A DNA stretch of 64,000 nucleotides from Eledone cirrhosa (taxonomy: Eukaryota): the NCBI GenBank assembly GCA_964016885.1, contig OZ024759.1, positions 18,848,001 to 18,912,000 on the forward strand, given 5' to 3'. The stretch's first letter is position 1. The number at the start of each line of letters is the position of its first letter. Position numbers and translations under genes: made by a program. The notes beneath the pieces are model-generated. The model saw only the letters and a program-made list of their open reading frames with translations. It was not told the DNA's origin and ran no database searches. This document shows positions 268 to 39,514 of the stretch, piece after piece.

Positions 268-334
<67 letters not shown>
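1..334. repeat. (TA)n-dominated compound microsatellite
   Basis: Continuous TA/TG/TATAA runs read directly. Confidence 0.97.
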
Positions 335-335
<1 letters not shown>

Positions 336-695
336 AGAAGTTATATTTAATTTGTTGGGATACAACAAGCAAATATTTTTATAACTGATATAAAGCACTC
401 AACAAATTTTTGGAGTAAAAATACAATATATTAACAAATGGAAACTATATTTATAAAACCATATTTATTTCATTATACATATTTCAAGGACACCAAAGCA
501 AATTACGGGACTATCCGGGAGCTTCCAACAGACATGGTCGCATTCTTTAAGGGTATGTCAATATTCGTTTATAAAACTGATCTATATTATATTTTATCTG
601 ATGAAAGCGCACCATAATTTGCTTTGGTGTCCTTGAAATATGTATAAAGAAATAAATATGGTTTTATAAATATAGTTTCCATTTGTTAATATATA
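335..695 (+). mobile_element. TA-embedded Penelope-like/retrozyme-like terminal fragment (family A) with inverted partial copy
   Basis: 79-bp inverted arms at 427-505 and 615-693; HHR motif inside; second copy of the sense part at ~22241-22382; flanked by (TA)n. Confidence 0.65.
590..654 (+). ncRNA. Type I hammerhead ribozyme motif (family A)
   Basis: TATTTTAT-CTGATGA(598-604)-AAGCGCACCA..TGGTGTCCTT-GAAA(635-638)-TATGTA-TA-AAGAAATA; one mismatch in stem I. Confidence 0.7.
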
Positions 696-726
696 TATAT
701 AGTTATGTAATAAACAACATAAGGCA

Positions 727-794
727 ATTATTCCATTTACCAGTGGTTTCTTAAAAGCAAAAGATTTTGTTTTCAATCCTCAGAATGAAAAAAT
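727..794 (-). ncRNA. Type I hammerhead ribozyme motif (family B, minus-strand copy)
   Basis: Reverse complement of 861-928 with one stem II substitution; core intact. Confidence 0.75.
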
Positions 795-860: not shown

Positions 861-928
861 ATTTTTTCATTCTGAGGATTGAAAGCAAAATCTTTTGCTT
901 TTAAGAAACCACTGGTAAATGGAATAAT
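861..928 (+). ncRNA. Type I hammerhead ribozyme motif (family B)
   Basis: TTTCATT-CTGAGGA(872-878)-TTGAAAGCAAAA/TC/TTTTGCTTTTAA-GAAA(905-908)-CCA C TGG-TA^AATGGAA; all three stems pair. Confidence 0.85.
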
Positions 929-1860: not shown

Positions 1861-2214
1861 TTTACCTGAAGATTCTCTTACAATAACTATGTTTCTGTAC
1901 TTATTTATTCATTTATTTATTCATTTACTCATTTAGTCATTCTTATTTCGTCTTTGTTCACTATGTTGCTTCTTATTTATCATAGAATTCAAATTGCTTT
2001 TATCTACCAACTTCATTTAGCTGCTTTCAAATGAGAATGACAACTCTTTTCGTTTTGAATAAACGTCTTTTTCAAAGAGATTACTGCAGATATTTTTAGC
2101 AAGAATTCTTGAAATTATTTAAACTACTACTTATTATATAAAGTGTCAAATAGTTGATTAATACGATCTAAGCTCAATACATCCAATTATCAATTTTGTA
2201 AAGAATGAGATAGT

Positions 2215-2790
2215 GGATTTGCCAGTATTATTAACATTTCGGGCAACATGCTTTGCAGCATTTAGTTACGGCCCTTTATATTCTTAGAATAAATCCCACC
2301 TTATGGGATCGAGAAAATAAAGTACCAGAAATGCACTGGGGTCAATTTTATCGACATTCCCCTTCCATTCTAATTGCTGGCCTTGTGCGTAAATCAGAAG
2401 CCATTATTAGAGCGACTGGTAACATGCTTTTTTACGTTGTGAGTTCAAATCCTATCGAGGTTAACTTTTGATTTTCATCGTTATAGGGTCGATGAAATAA
2501 AGTGCCAGAAACGCACTGGGTTCGTTTTTATCGACATTCCGCTTGCCTTCTAATTTCTGACCGAGTGCCTAAATCAGAAACGATTATTATAGCACCGGTC
2601 AAAATACTTTGTGGCATTTAAGTATGGATCTTTACATTCGGAAACCAAATTTCACCGAGGTCGGTTTTTGCCCTTTATTCTTCCGGGGTCAAATAAATAT
2701 GATATCTATCCAGTACTGGGGGTTAATATACTTAATCTTTTCCTCACCCAAAATTACTGGCCCTGTGCTAAGATTAGAAAACATTATCTT
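2215..2790 (+). mobile_element. Three tandem diverged copies of the major octopus tRNA-derived SINE
   Basis: Repeated GAGTTCAAAT..GGTCGAT.AAATAAAGTACCAG..CACTGGG..TTGCTGGCCTTGTGC..AGAAAC motif series. Confidence 0.85.
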
Positions 2791-2919
2791 TCAGTAAGGA
2801 CTACCAAATGCCTGTTGATCCTGGTTTCTATCTGCTAGTAACAAACAATATCATGGAAGCCCATTTTTAAAAAATGAAGATACATATACAGAGAGACAGA
2901 CGGTTACACATACATACAT

Positions 2920-3222
2920 GATGGCTGCCCCCTCGTTATCGAGTATGGCCATTGCACGTTATTCCATTATTAATAATTATTAATTAATTCTATCGTGCAA
3001 TGCCTGTACGTGAAGATATTTTTTAAAGTGAGGAAAAATTGTGCACTGAGCCAATCCCACACTCTGAGCGACAGTAGCTACAACCCGAAAAGAAGAAAAG
3101 ATCAACATCATCAGTTACTACTGAGCCGCAGGTTTTATATCGGAGTTATCCCAGTTTCCTGAGTTGCCTTCTCCTAGAAGAATGCCCTGACTAAGGCTAG
3201 GGGTCCTTCACTCCCAGTGGTT
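2920..3222 (-). mobile_element. RTE-leader-like non-autonomous repeat (second copy ~15335-15597)
   Basis: Two dispersed copies in the window; minus strand has GGGCATTCTTCTAGGAGAAGGCAACTC, resembling the RTE 5'-region motif I recall. Confidence 0.5.
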
Positions 3223-3347
3223 TAACAGCGCTCTCGAGTGTCCAGCCCGACTTTTCGTATGTCCTCGCGCATATACATACACATGCACCCATGTATATAA
3301 ACATATACATACATATGTACATGTGTATATACATATTTACACACTTT

Positions 3348-3536
3348 TAGCCGTTGACTCTTATGAGTTCTTCCGCCCATTGTCAGGTTTTGTTTTTTGT
3401 CCTGGAGGGTGTCCAAATCACCCTCCTCACCAAGTAAACTTGGTGGGGGTTGCCGGCTTAGTCACCGACGACCCGACCATGCCACAGGTTGTACTGGGTT
3501 ACATGTTACCAGTAGCACTCAAGAGTGACCCGACAT
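3348..3536. mobile_element. ~190-bp interspersed repeat (other copies ~15613-15780, ~55203-55392, ~55968-56166)
   Basis: Shared GGCCGTTGAC..CACCCTCCTCACCAAG..CTTGGTGGGGTTGCCGG..GTACTGGGTTACATGTTACCAGTAGCACTC; four copies. Confidence 0.85.
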
Positions 3537-3651
3537 ATATATATATACATACATACATATATATACATACATATTTATATATATACATACATACATATAT
3601 ATACAAACATATTTATATATATACATACATACATATATATACATACATATT

Positions 3652-3684
<33 letters not shown>

Positions 3685-3762
3685 TTATATATATATATAT
3701 ACATACATACATACATATACATACATATTTATATATATATATACATATATATACATACATAC

Positions 3763-3962
3763 AAACGAAAGTCGCCTGAGAAGTTCATAGACTGACCAAG
3801 ATACTCTCATGGAATGACGAAATGAGGTATATTTTTCAAAATAGTCCCTGAAAAGAAACACTGCAGTTATTAAGAAAAATTGAAATTAATGCATGCAAGA
3901 TTTCATAGCTCTAGCATCTCGCCTTCATAGTCAGCCTATCAGATTTTCAGCCCACCCTCGTA
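3763..3962. mobile_element. Mariner-type MITE (~190-200 bp)
   Basis: Ends in TTTTCAGCCCACCCTCGTA; same internal sequence as the intact copy at 53118-53305. Confidence 0.75.
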
Positions 3963-4600
3963 CATCACATACTCGCACGCATACACACATACACACATAC
4001 CCACACACACATACACATACCCACACACACATATACACATACCAACACACATATACACATACCCACACACATACACGCATACCCACGCACATACACGCAT
4101 ACCCACATATACACATATACCCACACACATACACACATACCCACGCGCATACACGCACACCCACACATATACGCATACCCACGCACATACACACATACAC
4201 ACACATATACACACATACCCACACACATACACACATACCCACACACATATATATATACATACCCACACATATATATACATACCCACACACATATACGCAT
4301 ACCCACACATATACACGCATACCCACGCACATACACACATACACACACATATACACACATACCCACACACACATATATATACATACCCACACACATATAC
4401 ACACATACCCACACATATACACACATACCCACACAAATACACGCATACCCACACATATACACACATACCCACACACATACACACATACCCACACACATAT
4501 ATATATACATACCCACACACATACATATACACAAACCCACACACATACACACAAACCCACACACATATACATACATTCTGTACAAACCCATACACATACA
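3963..4600. repeat. CA-rich satellite (CACACATACC/CACATATA units)
   Basis: Read directly. Confidence 0.95.
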
Positions 4601-5173
4601 TTCTGTACTACTAATACACATGTACATGTGTATTCATATGTATGAAGTTAAAATTAGTCTGTGGGCATACGTAAACAATGATGTGCTATGCTTCATTGAA
4701 CCAACATCAAATGGTTATAAAAATACATGGGAAATTCTAAATCAATGTAATGTCACGTGAGAGTAAAGGTATTTTTCGGAATACTCTATCGATTTATAAG
4801 TTGATCGCGACGGGAATTGACATCAGAGTGCAGTGAGCTGGAACAAATATCAGGGTGTTTAATCGTACACTTTAACCACTCTACAAATATTTCTGCCAAT
4901 TCAGCAGAGATAATGGTGGAAGAGGTACAGGATTGATGAACTTACTGTTCCAATTCCAATATATATCGTAACCCATTCGAGGTCTAAGATAAATAGGTAC
5001 TAGATATGAGTCGGATTTATATGATATATATTGTTCTAAATTAAGGAATAACTAAAGTGTACTTAACTGTTAGTGGAGTTGTAGGGGCACCGTCTTGATA
5101 TATAGCGTGCCTTGGGCAGTTTAAAGGTGACGAAGCGCATCCCTCTCTGGATCGAAACAGCTTATTTTTTTAC

Positions 5174-5231
<58 letters not shown>

Positions 5232-6311
5232 GAAGAAATAGAGAAAGCGCACGCGGGAGAGAAAGAGAGAGAGGGGGAGAGAAAGAGAGAGAGAGGAGGG
5301 ACGAGAGAGAGAGGGGGGAGAGAGCCCGAGAGAAAGTTAGAAAGATGTATGGAGGAAGAATCGACCCAAGTATTGGACTGGTACTTTATTTATCGACCTC
5401 AAAGAGATAAAATACAATCAAACTTAATCACAGAATAATTTCCTAGAAAATAAAATATAACCCCCCCCCCCACCCCCACCCCCACCCCACCCAGAAAATA
5501 TACAAATAAAAAGTAAATATCTGTTGGGTGGAAAGAATGACTGGGGGTTGTAAGGAACTGCGTGGGAAAAAGTTAAGATTAGATTATTCTGAAAACTACT
5601 GTGTGTGTTCAGAAAGAGAAATAACATTAGAATCGACAGCATGGCCGTTATTCATTGGCAGCTATTATTGGAATATTCAGGAAGATGAGAATTTTAACAG
5701 AAAATAAGGAATGAGCAAAGTTCAAAAGTAATTACACAACGTATATTATCAATTTCCTGTGGTCAAAGCAAGAAGAAAAAAAACAGTAGCTAAAATTATA
5801 TTTATATGAATACTAAAATAGCGGATCTAGTATAACAAAGATTGCCGTTTATCGGCAACTACATTACTTCTACTATGTTTTATAAATACTCATGTCAATT
5901 GCCCTAAATAATGCTATAGTTATTTTCAGAAAGAATAAATTAGAAGAAAAATAGAACAGAGATGTAAAATAAAAATAAAAAGTTGTATCGTACCAGACAC
6001 CGGAAGCGATACTGTTTATTATGAAATATTTACTTTGAGCGACAAATACATACAATCACAAAATGGTGTATAATAAAACTAGTGAAGCTAGGTAGGCATA
6101 TTGTGACTGTCGACTCGCTGTCGAGTATGACCACCTTTGGCGCTAAAATAGCGGGACCGTGTCGCCACCTGCCAGACACCATTAGAAATTCAGCGAAGGA
6201 TGCAGATGCGTAGGCGAATGATGAAAAGATGCATAAAATATATATATGTGTGTGTGTGTGTGTGTTTGTGTGTGTGTGTGCATGTATATATTTACATATA
6301 TGTGTGTGAAA

Positions 6312-6343
<32 letters not shown>

Positions 6344-6365
6344 ATTTACAAATGTGTGTGTGAGA

Positions 6366-6428
<63 letters not shown>

Positions 6429-6451
6429 TTTACATATATGTGTGTGTGAGA

Positions 6452-6486
<35 letters not shown>

Positions 6487-6805
6487 CGTGTATATATATA
6501 TATATATATATTTACATATATGTGTGTGTGTGTGTTATATCTATATAAATACAGGGTGTGTAAACGAGACTGCAATAACGTGTATAAATATATTCACATA
6601 TCTAATACATGTGTATAAATATATACGCATATCTAATATATAGGGATGTAAACATTCCAGTAAATATGAATTTCCCAGTAAAATGAAAAATGATAAATAC
6701 CTTTAATCCATTTCCCGATCTAATTGGACCCTTATCAGTAGACGTGTATATCATCCAACCAACCATAATGGAGCATGTATTTGATGGGTGTATATACCCC
6801 CCCCT

Positions 6806-6864
<59 letters not shown>

Positions 6865-6933
6865 AAGAAGAAATATCTGTAGTAGATGAAGTTACGCATG
6901 TATGAATGAGAAATAGAAATCAGCTTTACTAAA

Positions 6934-6987
6934 TTCAAGAGTGACCCGACATATATATACATACATACATATATATACATACATATT

Positions 6988-7021
<34 letters not shown>

Positions 7022-7125
7022 CTGTCATTTCTATAATATGAAGAGGGTGTTTAACTCCAACACACTCTAGTATTTTAATTCTTATATATATATATACATA
7101 CATATTTATATATATACATACATAT

Positions 7126-7158
<33 letters not shown>

Positions 7159-9040
7159 CATACATACACATTTATATATATACATATATATACATATTTA
7201 TATATATACATACATACATACATATTTATATATATACATACATATATATATATATACATACATATTTATATATATATACATACATACATATATATACATA
7301 TTTATATATATACATACATATCTATACATACATATTTATATATATACATACATATATATACATATTTATATATATACATACATATATATATATATACATA
7401 CATATTCATATATATACATACATACACATATACATACATATTTATATATATACATACATATCTATACATACATATTTATATATATACATACATACATACA
7501 TATACATACATATTTATATATATATATACATATATATACATACATACAAACGAAAGTCGCCTGAGAAGTTCATAGACTGACTAAGATACTCTCATGGAAT
7601 GACGAAATGAGGTTTATTTTTCAACATAGTCCCTGAAAAGAAACACTGCAGTTATTAAGAAAAATTGAAATTAATGCATGCAAGATTTCATAGCTCTAGC
7701 ATCTCGCCTCCATAGTCAGCCTATCAGATTTTCAGCCCACCCTCGTACATCACATACTCGCACGCATACACACATACACACATACACACATACCCACACA
7801 CACATACACATACCCACACATACATACACACATACCCACACACACATATACACATACCAACGCACATATACACATACCCACACACATATACCCATACCCA
7901 TACACATATACACATACCCACACACACATACACACATACCCATACACCTATACACATACCAACACATATATACACATACCAACACACATGCACACATACC
8001 CACACATACACACATACCCACACACATATACACATACCCATACACCTATACACATACCCATACACATACACACATACCCATACACATACACACATACCAA
8101 CACACATACACACATACCAAACACATATACACATACCCACACATACACACATACCAAACACATATACACATACCCATACACCTATACACATACCCATACA
8201 CATACACACATACCCATACACCTATACACATACCCACACACATATACACATACCCACACATACACACATACCCATACACATACCAACACACATGCACACA
8301 TACCCGCACACATATACACATACCCACACATATACACATACCCATACTCACATACACACATACCCATACACCTATACACATACCCACACACATACACACA
8401 TACCCACACACATATACACATACCAACACACATATACACATACCCACACACATATACACATACCCACACATATACACATACCCACACACATATACACATA
8501 CCCATACACATACACACATACCCACACACATATACACATACCCATACACATATACACATACCAACACACATGCACACATACCAACACACATGCACACATA
8601 CCCACACATATACACATACCCATACACACATACACACATACCCATACACCTATACACATACCCACACACATACACACATACCCACACACATATACACATA
8701 CCAACACACATATACACATACCCACACACATATACACATACCCACACACATATACACATACCCACACACATATACACATACCCATACACCTATACACATA
8801 CCAACACACATGCACACATACCCACACATATACACATACCCATACACATATACACATACCAACACACATGCACACATACCCACACTCATATACACATACC
8901 CATACACCTATACACATACCAACACACATGCACACATACCCACACATATACACATACCCACACACATATACACATACACACATACCCACACTCATATACA
9001 CATACCCATACACATATACACACACCAACACACAAACATA
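6934..9040 (+). repeat. Local duplicate of 3519-4600 with expanded satellites
   Basis: Same order: TCAAGAGTGACCCGAC, TATACA array, MITE (7548-7747, a few substitutions), CA satellite. Confidence 0.92.
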
Positions 9041-19335: not shown

Positions 19336-21555
19336 ATAGGGAGAGAGAAAGGAGGGAATAGAGAGCAAAAATAAAAAGGTGAGTGAAATAAGAAAATGAG
19401 AGAAAAGAGAATCAATGGATACATAGATATATAAACGAAAGAAACACAGAGTAAAAGAGAAGATAGGCAAGAGATATATATATAAAGAAAAATGAAAGAG
19501 AGAGAGAAGAGATACAGAGAAGAGATAGATATAGAGAAGAAAGAAAGATGAAGAGAAGAGTTTCAAAGAAAAGATAGATATAGAGAAGAAAGAAAAATGG
19601 AGAGAATGGTTACAGAGAAGAGAGTGAGAAAATATAATGGAATAATGTTTGTGTGTATGTGTTTCTATATGTATGTGTTAACACGGCTGGGAAGTCTTTT
19701 TGCTTTTACTAGATATGTGTGAACATTTTACAGTAAAAAAAAAAGAACGTTTTTTCTCATAAAAATTTCGGTAATTTTTTTTTAATATTCGTCTAAAACA
19801 TCTTAATCAGTTGTTCTCAAGCGATTTTGCTGAAACGCCTCCTTGTAATCTGATAAAATTATTAACGCCTCCAACACTCTCTGTTTCTCTTTTCTATATA
19901 TTTATCTATTACCTCTATCATGTATTTCTTTCTCATCCCTCTCTCCTTTCTCTTCTTGTTCTTTTCTCTAACATTCTTCTCTTGCTATCTTCTCTCTCAC
20001 TCTCTCTTTCTCTTTCTCTCTCTCTCTCTCTCTCTTCCTTTTCTCTCTCTTTGCCTACTATCTCTTTTTTTCTACTTATCTCTCTATGGCATACACACAT
20101 ATACACACACACACATATACACTCGTGCACATACAATCACACAAACGCACATTTATTTTATACGGGTTTTATGTATCTTGAAATATGGGTGTAATAACTT
20201 TAGAAACATATTTTCGCCATGTCCTCCTCTCCCCAAATTTTATAAAACGCCCCCAAGTTTTGAAATACCTTGGTATAAATAGAATCAGAGACTGTCGAAA
20301 TATTAATAAATTAGAAAAAAGAATAAGAAAGAAAAACGAATTGAAATTATACAAACTCCACCCCATTACATTTATCTTTCTTCCTCTACTTCTCTCTGTG
20401 TATTTTATGTTTCTGTAACACAGGTATACTTTTTGAAAGAAAACATTGTTAACGCATCACTAACTTATTTATAGAAGTAGATCACGAGAATGTGTTGTAT
20501 ATGTAATGTGGCCAATTTAAGATTGGTATTTAAGATCTTAATAATTGTATGTCTAGAAACAGGGTCACCTTGGACAGATAAAGGTGTTCAGTCGTTAGTG
20601 ATATTTTAACAAGAACGAAACTAGTTTGGCTGAACCTTTATTTTCTATCCAAGAAGATATTGTATACATGTCTTTATCTGCATCTACACATTTTTCTTTA
20701 GGACCCGTAACACTTGAAGGAGCAGTGAGGGCACAGTATTGACACACGACGTTTCATATGGCATTTTTTAAAACCTGGCAGAGCCCAGCTCCTCTACAGG
20801 TTTGAATATATCAAATTTCTTCCAGAGGAGGATAAAGAGTGAAAGAATAGAAGTAAGAGAGAGATATAGAGAAAAATCTACCCTAGTATTAAACTGATCC
20901 ATTTTTACCTACCTCCAATGGAAGAAAGGGAAATTTGACCTGGGTGACATTCGAACTCAGAATGTAAAGAGCGAGAACAATAAACTATTGTCAGATGCTC
21001 CAAGGATTCTGCTTAGCCGTAGCCCTTATAGGACTTTATTTTATTAACTCTGGAAGGACAAAAGCCAAAGATCTCAGCAACATTTGAACTCATAATGCTT
21101 GTATAAAGGGTTCTTATATATATATATTAAAAAGTATGACCCCGACGGCAGAGCTCAAGCCGTTTCGACGGCTCTATCTGGACTGAAATAGCCGTCAAAA
21201 CGGCTTGAGCTCTGCCGTCGGGGTCATACTTTTTCCTATTTCCCACTCTACTACCCTAAGTATTGAGTACTCTGGTGCGTTATGGTCCATCTGGTTCCTT
21301 ACTTACCACAATTCCTTTGTTATACATATATATTATATGATGGACTCTCCCGTCGATATCCGACATATGAGTGTCCAACAAAAGTTAAATGTGAGAAAGT
21401 GAACTGATGTTGAACTACCCACACAGCACAAAGTTTTGATTTAAGTGGTGAAGGCTTGTGTAGGACCAACCACCTTTTTTGGAACTGACCATACATATCT
21501 TCGGTCCACGGAAAATACGAAAGCCCTCAGCTTTTTATACCTGGGAGTTTAACCT

Positions 21556-22114: not shown

Positions 22115-22149
<35 letters not shown>

Positions 22150-22179
22150 CATATATAGCCAGGTTGTCTTTATGTATGT

Positions 22180-22223
<44 letters not shown>

Positions 22224-22278
22224 CCAGGTTGTCTTTATGCGGGTATGTCAATATTTATAAAACAAAAAAACAAATTTG

Positions 22279-22344
22279 TATTTTATCTGATGAAAGCGCA
22301 CCAAAATTTGCCTTGGTTGCCCTTGAAATATATATAATAAAATA
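22279..22344 (+). ncRNA. Type I hammerhead ribozyme motif (family A, best copy)
   Basis: TATTTTAT-CTGATGA(22287-22293)-AAG C GCA CCAA..TTGG T TGC C CTT-GAAA-TATATA-TA^ATAAAATA; perfect 8-bp stem I. Confidence 0.85.
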
Positions 22345-22440
22345 ATTATGGTTTTATAAATATAGTTTCCATTTATTAGTATATATATATGTGTGTGAGT
22401 ATATACATATGCATATATGTATATGTATATATATATATGT

Positions 22441-22886
22441 GTTTTCACGGTATTTTTGACTAAAGGAATTGTAGCCTGATAACGGGGTTTAGAACCCTCA
22501 GATAAATGGAAAAAGATGTGTATTGACGTACATGGGAGTCGAACCCACATCTTTGGTTATCGCGACCATTGTGCTACCATTACACCAACACATTACCCAT
22601 CCCCTTCTATTCAAATTAGAAGCTACATTCTTAGCGAGTTTAAATGGCAAGTAAGTATGTTTTGAAACAGTGAGCAGGTTTGAAATTAGAAAATAGAATA
22701 GCTTTCACGGTATTTTTGACTAAAGGAATTTTAGCCTGATAAAGGGGTTTAGAACCCTCAGATAAATGGAAAAAGATGTGTATTGACGTACATTTTATCA
22801 GGCTAAAATTCCTTTAGTCAAAAATGCCGTGAAAGCTATTCTATTTTCTAATTTCAAACCTGCTCACTGTTTCAAAACATACTTAA
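22441..22886 (-). mobile_element. TA-embedded element with 260-bp tandem unit, terminal inversion and internal tRNA-like cassette
   Basis: Direct repeat 22443-22533 / 22703-22793; 22793-22885 is the reverse complement of ~22652-22743. Confidence 0.75.
22524..22596 (-). pseudogene. tRNA-derived sequence (A and B boxes; weak acceptor stem)
   Basis: TGGTGTAATGGTAGCAC..TGGT..ACCA..GTGGGTTCGACTCCCAT: D arm and T arm pair. Confidence 0.65.
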
Positions 22887-39335: not shown

Positions 39336-39374
39336 TATAAATATTAATAAAATAGATGTTCTTTTGATCAATTA

Positions 39375-39429
39375 CATTTTATTATACATATTTCGGATGT
39401 ACAACAGTACGTCCTCATCAGACAAAATA
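39375..39429 (-). ncRNA. Type I hammerhead ribozyme motif (family E)
   Basis: TATTTTGT-CTGATGA-GGACGTAC TGTT GTACATCC-GAAA-TATGTA-TA^ATAAAATG on the minus strand. Confidence 0.88.
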
Positions 39430-39514
39430 TGATACATGACATACCCTGAGATGTTAAATGGTTAAGATTTAATCAAAGTAGTGATTAGACATAATCATTG
39501 AATATCGTTTAACA

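What the first reader, a model, noticed from the sequence alone, without database searches (positions are those of the whole stretch)
22279..22344. Best family A ribozyme: stem III is itself a (TA)4 repeat
It has a perfect 8-bp stem I and a predicted cut after 22336. Stem II differs from the copy at 590 yet still pairs. Stem III plus the cleavage site reads ATATATAT-A, the same sequence as the arrays these elements sit in, which raises a possible link between the cleaved RNA end and TA-target priming (speculative).
Basis: partly seen in the sequence, partly recalled or inferred. Interest (0 to 1): 0.7.

Follow-up and report, generated by a model that had tools for sequence, protein, structure and literature searches.

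The report
Hammerhead in a Penelope element tail
This is an ordinary hammerhead motif, predicted to cut its own RNA, in the leftover tail of a Penelope-type jumping gene that lands in TA repeats; its own short TA run likely serves to pair two copies of the RNA, and copies of the gene end about 45 or 140 bases past the predicted cut, almost never at it.

Summary
The motif is real: a minimal type I hammerhead at 22279-22344, predicted cut after A22336, with covarying stem II across relatives. It lies in a 153-bp, 5'-truncated end of a Penelope-like element (PLE) with Hydra-clade motifs. Full-length relatives carry it in both pseudo-LTRs around an RT + GIY-YIG ORF. The proposed link between the cleaved end and TA-target priming fails. 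3,667 copies run intact through the cut site and only 10 run into (TA)n there. Only 5,470 of 20,508 descriptor matches have a pure TA stem III. A sister family of 22,841 copies has ATGCGCAT and still sits in (TA)n. What is kept is self-complementarity, the known dimer feature. Insertion ends fall about +45 and +140 from the cut, matching published internal RT initiation (PMC11167929). Extra points: each end lies just 5' of a repeated small hairpin, and 68 of 70 inverted pairs have one end of each type, copied from one source. The scan had already noted the hairpins on other DNA of this genome.

The parts
22226..22378 (+). 5'-truncated 3' end (pseudo-LTR remnant) of a Hydra-type Penelope-like element; no ORF, no second copy, ends before the first hairpin
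   Evidence: 93-95% identical over query 2-154 to the best genome copies; same sequence flanks RT+GIY-YIG ORFs in L071, L104
22279..22286 (+). hammerhead stem I, 5' strand
   Evidence: 98.1% of cells paired in 74 relatives, partly by selection of the set
22287..22293 (+). catalytic core CUGAUGA
   Evidence: sequence
22294..22324 (+). stem II: 3 bp, conserved C-C mismatch, 3 bp, bulge, 4 bp, 8-nt loop
   Evidence: 5 of 6 proximal pairs show changes on both sides
22325..22328 (+). core GAAA (G12, A13, A14, A15.1)
   Evidence: sequence
22328..22335 (+). palindromic stem III ATATATAT (A15.1 to U16.1), predicted to pair between two motifs
   Evidence: variants ATATGTAT and ATGCGCAT keep dimer pairing in 99.3% of cells; genome counts
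22336..22336 (+). H17, predicted cleavage 3' of this A (triplet AUA)
   Evidence: hammerhead numbering; cleavage not tested
22337..22344 (+). stem I, 3' strand
22345..22384 (+). post-cut sequence up to the 'short' insertion end, +42 to +48 from the cut, where it merges into (TA)n; in full-length elements this is the start of the 5' UTR
22158..22182 (+). short local duplicate of the fragment's 5' edge inside the TA tract
   Evidence: blast; sequence
22126..22222 (.). (TA)n tract on the 5' side
22380..22440 (.). degenerate (TA)n tract on the 3' side
551..701 (+). second copy of the same family (hammerhead 590-654), short end
333..504 (-). inverted partner arm of the 590 copy, with the long (+140) end

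Best explanation
The sequence is a minimal type I hammerhead motif inside the truncated tail of a Penelope-like retrotransposon with Hydra-clade motifs, and its ATATATAT stem III is likely a palindrome for pairing two motifs rather than a primer for the TA target. SHOWN: the motif sits in the repeats that flank an RT + GIY-YIG ORF; stem II covaries; stem III changes between families but stays self-complementary; insertions end about 45 or 140 nt downstream of the cut and run intact across it. INFERRED: the element's GIY-YIG domain nicks (TA)n DNA. The RT then starts inside the RNA at one of two sites downstream of the hammerhead, as shown in vitro for the Anolis Poseidon element, and copies back across an uncut (or re-joined) cleavage site. 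This copy is a cDNA started at the upstream site and stopped after about 150 nt. Alone, with an all A-U stem I and no same-strand partner nearby, it is probably inert. In an active element the motif would cut only as a dimer or with protein help, outside the priming step.
For: Both pLTRs of L071 carry the motif 3,676 bp apart around RT and GIY-YIG frames. Open 743-aa frames in L104 and L105 have RLRWR/RIRWR, SDKTN, CNCRNKSNC, (I/V)VY..YVG, CxxC and CxH; Pfam GIY-YIG E 1.5e-4; Atlas neighbours at 0.96-0.98 carry HTH_animal, GIY-YIG or RVT_1. Covariation score 0.342 against 0.227 +/- 0.007, 0 of 500 shuffles, and at most 0.164 for slid partners; RNAalifold recovers stems I and II unprompted. 3,667 copies run through the cut against 10 ending there. 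Among 249 places, the first (TA)5 lies at +30-69 in 121, +70-119 in 3, +120-155 in 89, and is absent in 36. Stem III is pure TA in 5,470 of 20,508; the ATGCGCAT family has 22,841 copies with the same two end classes in (TA)n. Published Hydra families insert in (TA)n with non-TA stem IIIs (PMC8557442 supplement). Two internal RT starts, and no effect of hammerhead mutants on insertion, in PMC11167929.
Against: Cleavage was not tested and no Rfam hammerhead model matches. The G10.1-C11.1 pair typical of minimal hammerheads is A-U in 113 of 144 sequences. The Pfam GIY-YIG score (22.4 bits) is just under the 22.6 cut-off and Pfam gave no RT hit on the three RT-part frames. The motif is RWR, not RWK, and elements are 3.3-4.3 kb against 'generally <3 kb' for Hydra. 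No tree was built. The shuffle control ignores relatedness, and the 249 places were picked by patterns that include stem I 3', so they cannot show ends at the cut; only searches test that. 8 of the 10 copies do stop at the cut, so a rare route (about 0.2%) is not excluded. Internal initiation was shown for a Poseidon element, not a Hydra one.
Confidence: 0.88

Rival explanations
1. One reading: self-cleavage leaves an RNA ending in AUAUAUAUA that anneals to nicked (TA)n DNA and sets the start of reverse transcription, so stem III doubles as the targeting sequence.
For: The sequence identity is real. 10 copies run into (TA)n at the cut, 8 of them with nothing of the element beyond it, and all 10 have the pure TA stem III although the pattern allowed the G variant.
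Against: 10 against 3,667. The rare cases are as easily explained by deletion between stem III and the downstream TA tract, or by a later insertion into this TA run. 73% of descriptor matches lack a pure TA stem III. The ATGCGCAT family targets (TA)n equally. Hammerhead mutants did not change insertion in PMC11167929.
Confidence: 0.03
2. The hammerhead cuts at both pseudo-LTRs and the unit RNA is circularised. The circle is the RT template, so the RT starts in the 5' UTR, crosses the ligated site, and makes the partial tandem by going round more than once (model of PMC4209133).
For: Both end sites lie in the 5' UTR, yet both cap arms that carry the ORF. The long end does so in L194, L196, L197, L199, L201, L204 and L219, which needs a template continuous from ORF through the cut to +140. 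Most full-length copies seen end at the short site and lack the hairpins at their 3' end. The two pLTRs of L109 and of L112 share private variants.
Against: A ligated junction has the same sequence as an uncut one, so genome data cannot separate the two. Tandem or long-ended parents could supply a linear template. In PMC11167929 unprocessed RNA was the dominant substrate and no RNA reads began or ended at the cut.
Confidence: 0.25
3. The fragment is a stand-alone non-coding retrozyme or SINE-like mini-element rather than a truncated copy of a coding element.
For: Short copies without ORF are the majority of those seen; animal retrozymes are described as PLE derivatives (10.64898/2026.07.22.740005, part 1 of 5 read).
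Against: No fixed 5' end: copies stop at scattered points upstream, and the same sequence continues into the 3' UTR and ORF of coding elements. No head-to-tail array of short units here.
Confidence: 0.04
4. The match is a chance pattern in AT-rich DNA next to microsatellites.
For: The single sequence folds no better than shuffles; stem I is all A-U; no Rfam hit.
Against: Invariant core boxes with a freely varying but paired stem II across at least four families; fixed position in pLTRs; 20,508 against 0 control matches.
Confidence: 0.02

Closest known systems
Hydra clade of C-terminal EN+ Penelope-like elements, including Hydra-1_Obim of Octopus bimaculoides (Craig et al. 2021, PMC8557442; seen: passages, sections 11 and 15, supplement searches and part 2 of 59)
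   Same: RT followed by GIY-YIG without CCHH; DKT; CxCx5C linker; CxxC and CxH near the C-terminus; hammerhead near the 3' end; insertion into (TA)n; inverted 5'-truncated copies; tail at one end.
   Different: Not Hydra-1_Obim: its hammerhead (stem III acca-a-tggt), N-terminal sequence and length (2,507 bp) differ by eye from ours. Ours is 3.3-4.3 kb with a long AT-rich 3' UTR, has RWR for RWK, and a tail of about 90 nt instead of 30-40.
Minimal hammerheads of metazoan PLEs (Cervera and de la Pena 2014, PMC4209133; seen: parts 1-2 of 4, introduction to start of methods)
   Same: Type I core, long helix II, tiny palindromic helix III thought to work as a dimer, most copies scattered as single motifs from truncated PLEs, pairs on opposite strands 100-700 bp apart.
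   Different: Helix I is 8 bp rather than 4-5; 10.1-11.1 is mostly A-U, not G-C; a conserved C-C or C-U mismatch at the fourth pair of helix II (1 of 144 paired); at least 20,508 matches here against 2,000-9,000 per genome reported there.
Poseidon element of Anolis carolinensis, internal RT initiation (Frangieh et al. 2024, PMC11167929; seen: parts 1-2 of 4, main text and start of methods; supplements not read)
   Same: Two RT start sites downstream of the hammerhead cut define the tail; both target strands are nicked and extended; hammerhead cleavage is not needed for insertion; protein predicted to be a dimer.
   Different: Other clade; starts lie in an AC-rich stem-loop inside the ORF, whereas ours lie in the 5' UTR about 90 nt apart, each just 5' of a repeated RCTC..GAGYGCTT hairpin; target is ATT in AT-rich DNA rather than (TA)n.

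Membership tests
Minimal type I hammerhead of metazoan PLEs | Core boxes CUGANGA, GAAA, UH in type I order | tested here: met
   invariant in alignment A1, but the set was selected on these boxes
Minimal type I hammerhead of metazoan PLEs | Helices I and II supported by covariation | tested here: met
   5 of 6 helix II pairs and 1 of 8 helix I pairs change on both sides; 0 of 500 shuffles reach the score (74 of the 144 distinct sequences, chosen by hand to cover families)
Minimal type I hammerhead of metazoan PLEs | Short palindromic helix III (dimer form) | tested here: met
   ATATATAT, ATATGTAT (two G-U) and ATGCGCAT all self-pair; 99.3% of cells paired
Minimal type I hammerhead of metazoan PLEs | G10.1-C11.1 with an unpaired base after position 9 (typical, not universal) | tested here: not met
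   A-U in 113, G-U in 19, G-C in 3 of 144; Hydra-1_Obim also opens helix II with A-U in the published table
Minimal type I hammerhead of metazoan PLEs | Self-cleavage at H17 | not testable with these tools
   no assay possible
Rfam hammerhead families | Match to a covariance model | tested here: not met
   no hammerhead among 1 hit at gathering score or 22 hits to E 10
EN+ Penelope-like element | Single ORF with RT and C-terminal GIY-YIG | tested here: met
   743-aa frames in L104, L105, L106, L109 with YRDD (YRDY in L104) and VY..YVG; Pfam GIY-YIG E 1.5e-4, just below cut-off
EN+ Penelope-like element | Partial tandem pLTRs holding the hammerhead; inverted 5'-truncated copy; tail at one end | tested here: met
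   L071, L072, L109, L112; 68 of 70 pairs have the tail on one arm
Hydra clade | DKT in place of DKG | tested here: met
   SDKTN in all 10 frames printed
Hydra clade | CxCx5C linker; no CCHH; CxxC and CxH around the late E and N | tested here: met
   CNCRNKSNC at 602; CSLC/CDLC; CKH/CRH; no CxxC inside the GIY-YIG core
Hydra clade | N-terminal RWK motif | tested here: inconclusive
   RWR at the same place in 9 of 10 frames, RWH in one
Hydra clade | Insertion into (TA)n | tested here: met
   213 of 249 places have (TA)5 within about 200 nt past the cut
Hydra clade | Generally short, under 3 kb (a tendency, not a definition) | tested here: not met
   cut-to-cut units of 3,334, 3,676 and 4,297 bp
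Hydra clade | Phylogenetic placement with named Hydra families | not tested
   reference proteins were seen only as supplement text and compared by eye; no tree built

The most novel reading that the evidence does not exclude
Each insertion of these elements is made on one RNA at two marked start sites. Two copies of a small hairpin (ACTC..GAGUGCUU and GCUC..GAGCGCUU, 90 nt apart in the 5' UTR) each dock one RT of a dimer. Each RT starts 7-10 nt upstream of its hairpin from one of the two nicked target strands, and the downstream one displaces the cDNA of the upstream one. This would explain the PLE tail, the inverted arms and the one-short-one-long rule, with the hammerhead outside the priming step or serving only to circularise the template.
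Probability: 0.4. Interest if true: 0.6.

Novelty: new member of a known kind. Interest (0 to 1): 0.3.

Why it matters
As given, the finding is ordinary: one of tens of thousands of hammerhead-bearing PLE ends, and the TA-priming link is refuted by the genome's own junctions. The side result matters more. How PLEs make their tail and inverted arms is open. Two defined start sites with a repeated hairpin, used once each per insertion and from one source, give a direct in vitro test on a very abundant family with open reading frames still present.

Tried and rejected
Rfam at gathering score and at E 10 gave no hammerhead. Monomer folding gave no support for an active single motif. Pfam found no RT family on three RT-part frames. 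The search for sequencing runs returned no RNA holder listed, so no reads were laid and expression and cleavage in vivo are untested. The de-duplication failed, so its counts hold repeats; it is used only for the sequences shown, and one search gives the de-duplicated counts. A twin-priming model in which the long end comes only from the 5' pLTR of a linear RNA was rejected, because long ends cap ORF-bearing arms in 7 loci. Arms copied from two unrelated parent copies were rejected for most pairs: median 1 difference within pairs against 10 between same-family arms. An R2-like 5' end at the cut was rejected (7 of 2,284). The look-up of earlier notes by place returned nothing. Four paper searches listed no paper whose title or abstract start describes the repeated hairpin or a one-short-one-long count. 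The library is partial, and the supplements of PMC11167929 (Figs S1B, S2) and PMC4209133 were not read and may bear on this; 'tail often at only one end' is already in PMC8557442.

Full report
Observation. The window is G000:C20:18848001-18912000 of a 3.0-Gb genome rich in (TA)n. I take it for an animal, probably a cephalopod; that rests on recall of its repeats and on no call. A pattern scan finds at 22279-22344 a type I hammerhead: stem I TATTTTAT/ATAAAATA, CTGATGA, a 31-nt stem II region, GAAA, TATATA, TA. The copy at 590-654 keeps stem II through G-U pairs but has a stem I mismatch. The monomer does not fold into this shape (z -1.06, 30 of 200 shuffles as good). Closing stem III raises the energy from -8.1 to -5.2 kcal/mol. 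Rfam has no matching hammerhead model.

Is it a real structured RNA motif? A descriptor with fixed core and stem I but free stem II and stem III matches 20,508 places; the reversed control matches 0. From the fetched loci I drew 249 distinct places and 144 distinct sequences and aligned 74 of the 144, chosen by hand to cover the families. 97.4% of cells pair. 5 of 6 proximal stem II pairs change on both sides. The covariation score is 0.342 against 0.227 +/- 0.007 in shuffles (0 of 500) and at most 0.164 when partners are slid. RNAalifold finds stems I and II itself. Limits: the shuffles ignore relatedness, and stems I and III were filtered to at most 3 mismatches from the family form. The fourth position of stem II is a mismatch in 143 of 144 sequences, mostly C-C or C-U.

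What carries it. The fragment 22226-22378 is 93-95% identical to copies across the genome. A 25-mer just past the cut has 44,753 exact copies. In L071 two same-strand hammerheads 3,676 bp apart flank frameshifted RT and GIY-YIG frames. L104, L105, L106 and L109 hold 743-aa open frames; in L104, L106 and L109 the hammerhead core starts 213-237 nt upstream of the frame. The proteins have SDKTN, CNCRNKSNC, (I/V)VY..YVG without a CxxC inside, and late CxxC and CxH. These are the features listed for the Hydra clade in PMC8557442 (section 11). RWK is RWR here and the elements are longer than typical. The published octopus member, Hydra-1_Obim, has a different hammerhead, N-terminus and length (compared by eye), so this is another family. 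No tree was built.

Test of the TA-priming idea. If the cleaved end set the junction, copies would stop at GAAA(TA)n. 10 do so by pattern against 3,667 that continue into stem I. Of the 10, 8 stop there, one is a TA expansion with the element continuing, and one continues for 4 nt. On the 5' side, 7 of 2,284 copies have a TA run directly before the post-cut sequence, and one of the 7 still has its hammerhead. Pure TA stem III makes up 5,470 of 20,508 descriptor matches. Among the 249 places, TATATA occurs 113 times, TATGTA 71, TGCGCA 58 and seven other forms once each; this sample is enriched for the query's type. A sister family with ATGCGCAT has 22,841 copies and ends in (TA)n in the same way. 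All common variants self-pair as a dimer, the property described for minimal hammerheads in PMC4209133. In the published Hydra table nearly all families prefer (TA)n while stem III reads acag-tt-ctgt, actc-g-gagt and the like. Stem III is therefore kept as a palindrome; its TA identity in this subfamily is incidental. A rare route through the cleaved end (about 0.2%) is not excluded, but deletion between two TA runs explains it as well.

Where the ends are. The first (TA)5 after the cut lies at +30-69 in 121 of 249 places, +70-119 in 3, +120-155 in 89, and is absent in 36. These places were picked with stem I 3' present, so the empty 0-29 class is not a test. The window copy ends at +42 to +48. 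In full-length elements both sites lie in the 5' UTR, between the cut and the ATG at about +185. PMC11167929 showed for the Anolis Poseidon element that the RT starts at two internal sites downstream of the hammerhead, that the tail is the stretch between them, that hammerhead mutants do not alter insertion, and that cleavage needs the protein. The genome pattern here fits that.

Side results. (a) Of 81 head-to-head pairs within 600 bp, 68 have one short and one long end and 2 have two short ends; 11 could not be classed because an arm runs on into the ORF (10) or ends elsewhere (1). 68 of 70 gives p 2e-18 against 0.5; two loci contribute a duplicated pair each. Of 24 pairs 1-5 kb apart, 23 are mixed by my count, taking a +68 and a +39 end as short; L208 has two long ends. 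(b) Either end can cap the ORF-bearing arm, and in L200, L205 and L213 both arms reach the ORF. (c) Arms within a pair differ at a median of 1 position in about 95 nt, against 10 between same-family arms. The partner is the closest or tied in 41 of 57 pairs, and one pair is a cross-family mismatch. (d) ACTC..GAGTGCTT starts at +51 to +65 in 86 of 126 copies with no TA run in the first 115 nt; 37 lack it, among them short-ended copies without a TA flank. A second copy ending GAGCGCTT lies at about +136 to +152 in 15 of 19 copies that run into the ORF. GAGYGCTT occurs only at these places in whole elements: twice each in L105 and L217, once in L071 and in the truncated L108. I noted the hairpins before reading the scan's earlier notes, two of which report them on other pieces of this genome; those notes are not independent evidence.

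Mechanism. Shown: anatomy, covariation, junction positions, pair rule, common source of the arms. Inferred from related elements: GIY-YIG nicking of (TA)n, internal RT initiation, dimer- or protein-dependent cleavage. Inferred here only: that the hairpins mark the start sites and that both are used on one RNA. Whether the template is uncut tandem RNA or a re-ligated circle cannot be told from DNA, since both give the same junction. The window copy lacks ORF, hairpins and a nearby partner and is probably inert.

Verdict. A real but ordinary minimal hammerhead in a truncated end of a new family of Hydra-type PLE. Interest 0.3, nearly all from the two-site, twin-hairpin side result.

Noticed in passing
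alignment A1; window 22297 and 22321: The fourth position of stem II is a C-C or C-U mismatch in 143 of 144 sequences across families whose flanking pairs covary; it may be a tertiary contact with stem I or a protein site.
   Followed up: partly
window 22443-22885: A separate element in the next TA tract: a tRNA-like unit on the minus strand (22523-22595; ARAGORN calls tRNA-Ser, Rfam tRNA 36 bits) between 91-nt direct repeats (22443-22533, 22703-22793), with a 92-nt inverted copy (22652-22743 against 22794-22885). The layout resembles PLE insertions.
   Followed up: no
window 731-790 (-) and 865-924 (+): Fold-back pair of an unrelated hammerhead family (core CTGAGGA, 7-bp stem I, stem III ACCACTGGT, a palindrome with one central base).
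   Followed up: no
window 39374-39430 (-): Related hammerhead with 9-bp stem I, short stem II and stem III ATATGTAT.
   Followed up: partly
window 21124-21239: Palindromic mini-element with 55-nt arms, 91% complementary, next to a TA run; similar sequence recurs beside TA tracts in many fetched loci.
   Followed up: no
L073:3250-5611 (-): A different PLE-like ORF in three frames (GLKF, YLDD, CxxC inside the GIY-YIG core) lying between two inverted duplicates of a block that holds the family A hammerhead.
   Followed up: no
G000: Many copies of a related subfamily (74-78% identity to the query frame) keep open frames of 740-760 aa, which suggests recent activity.
   Followed up: partly
L011 and L025: Two of the best genome copies share 98%-identical flanks, so they are one insertion in a segmental duplication.
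   Followed up: no
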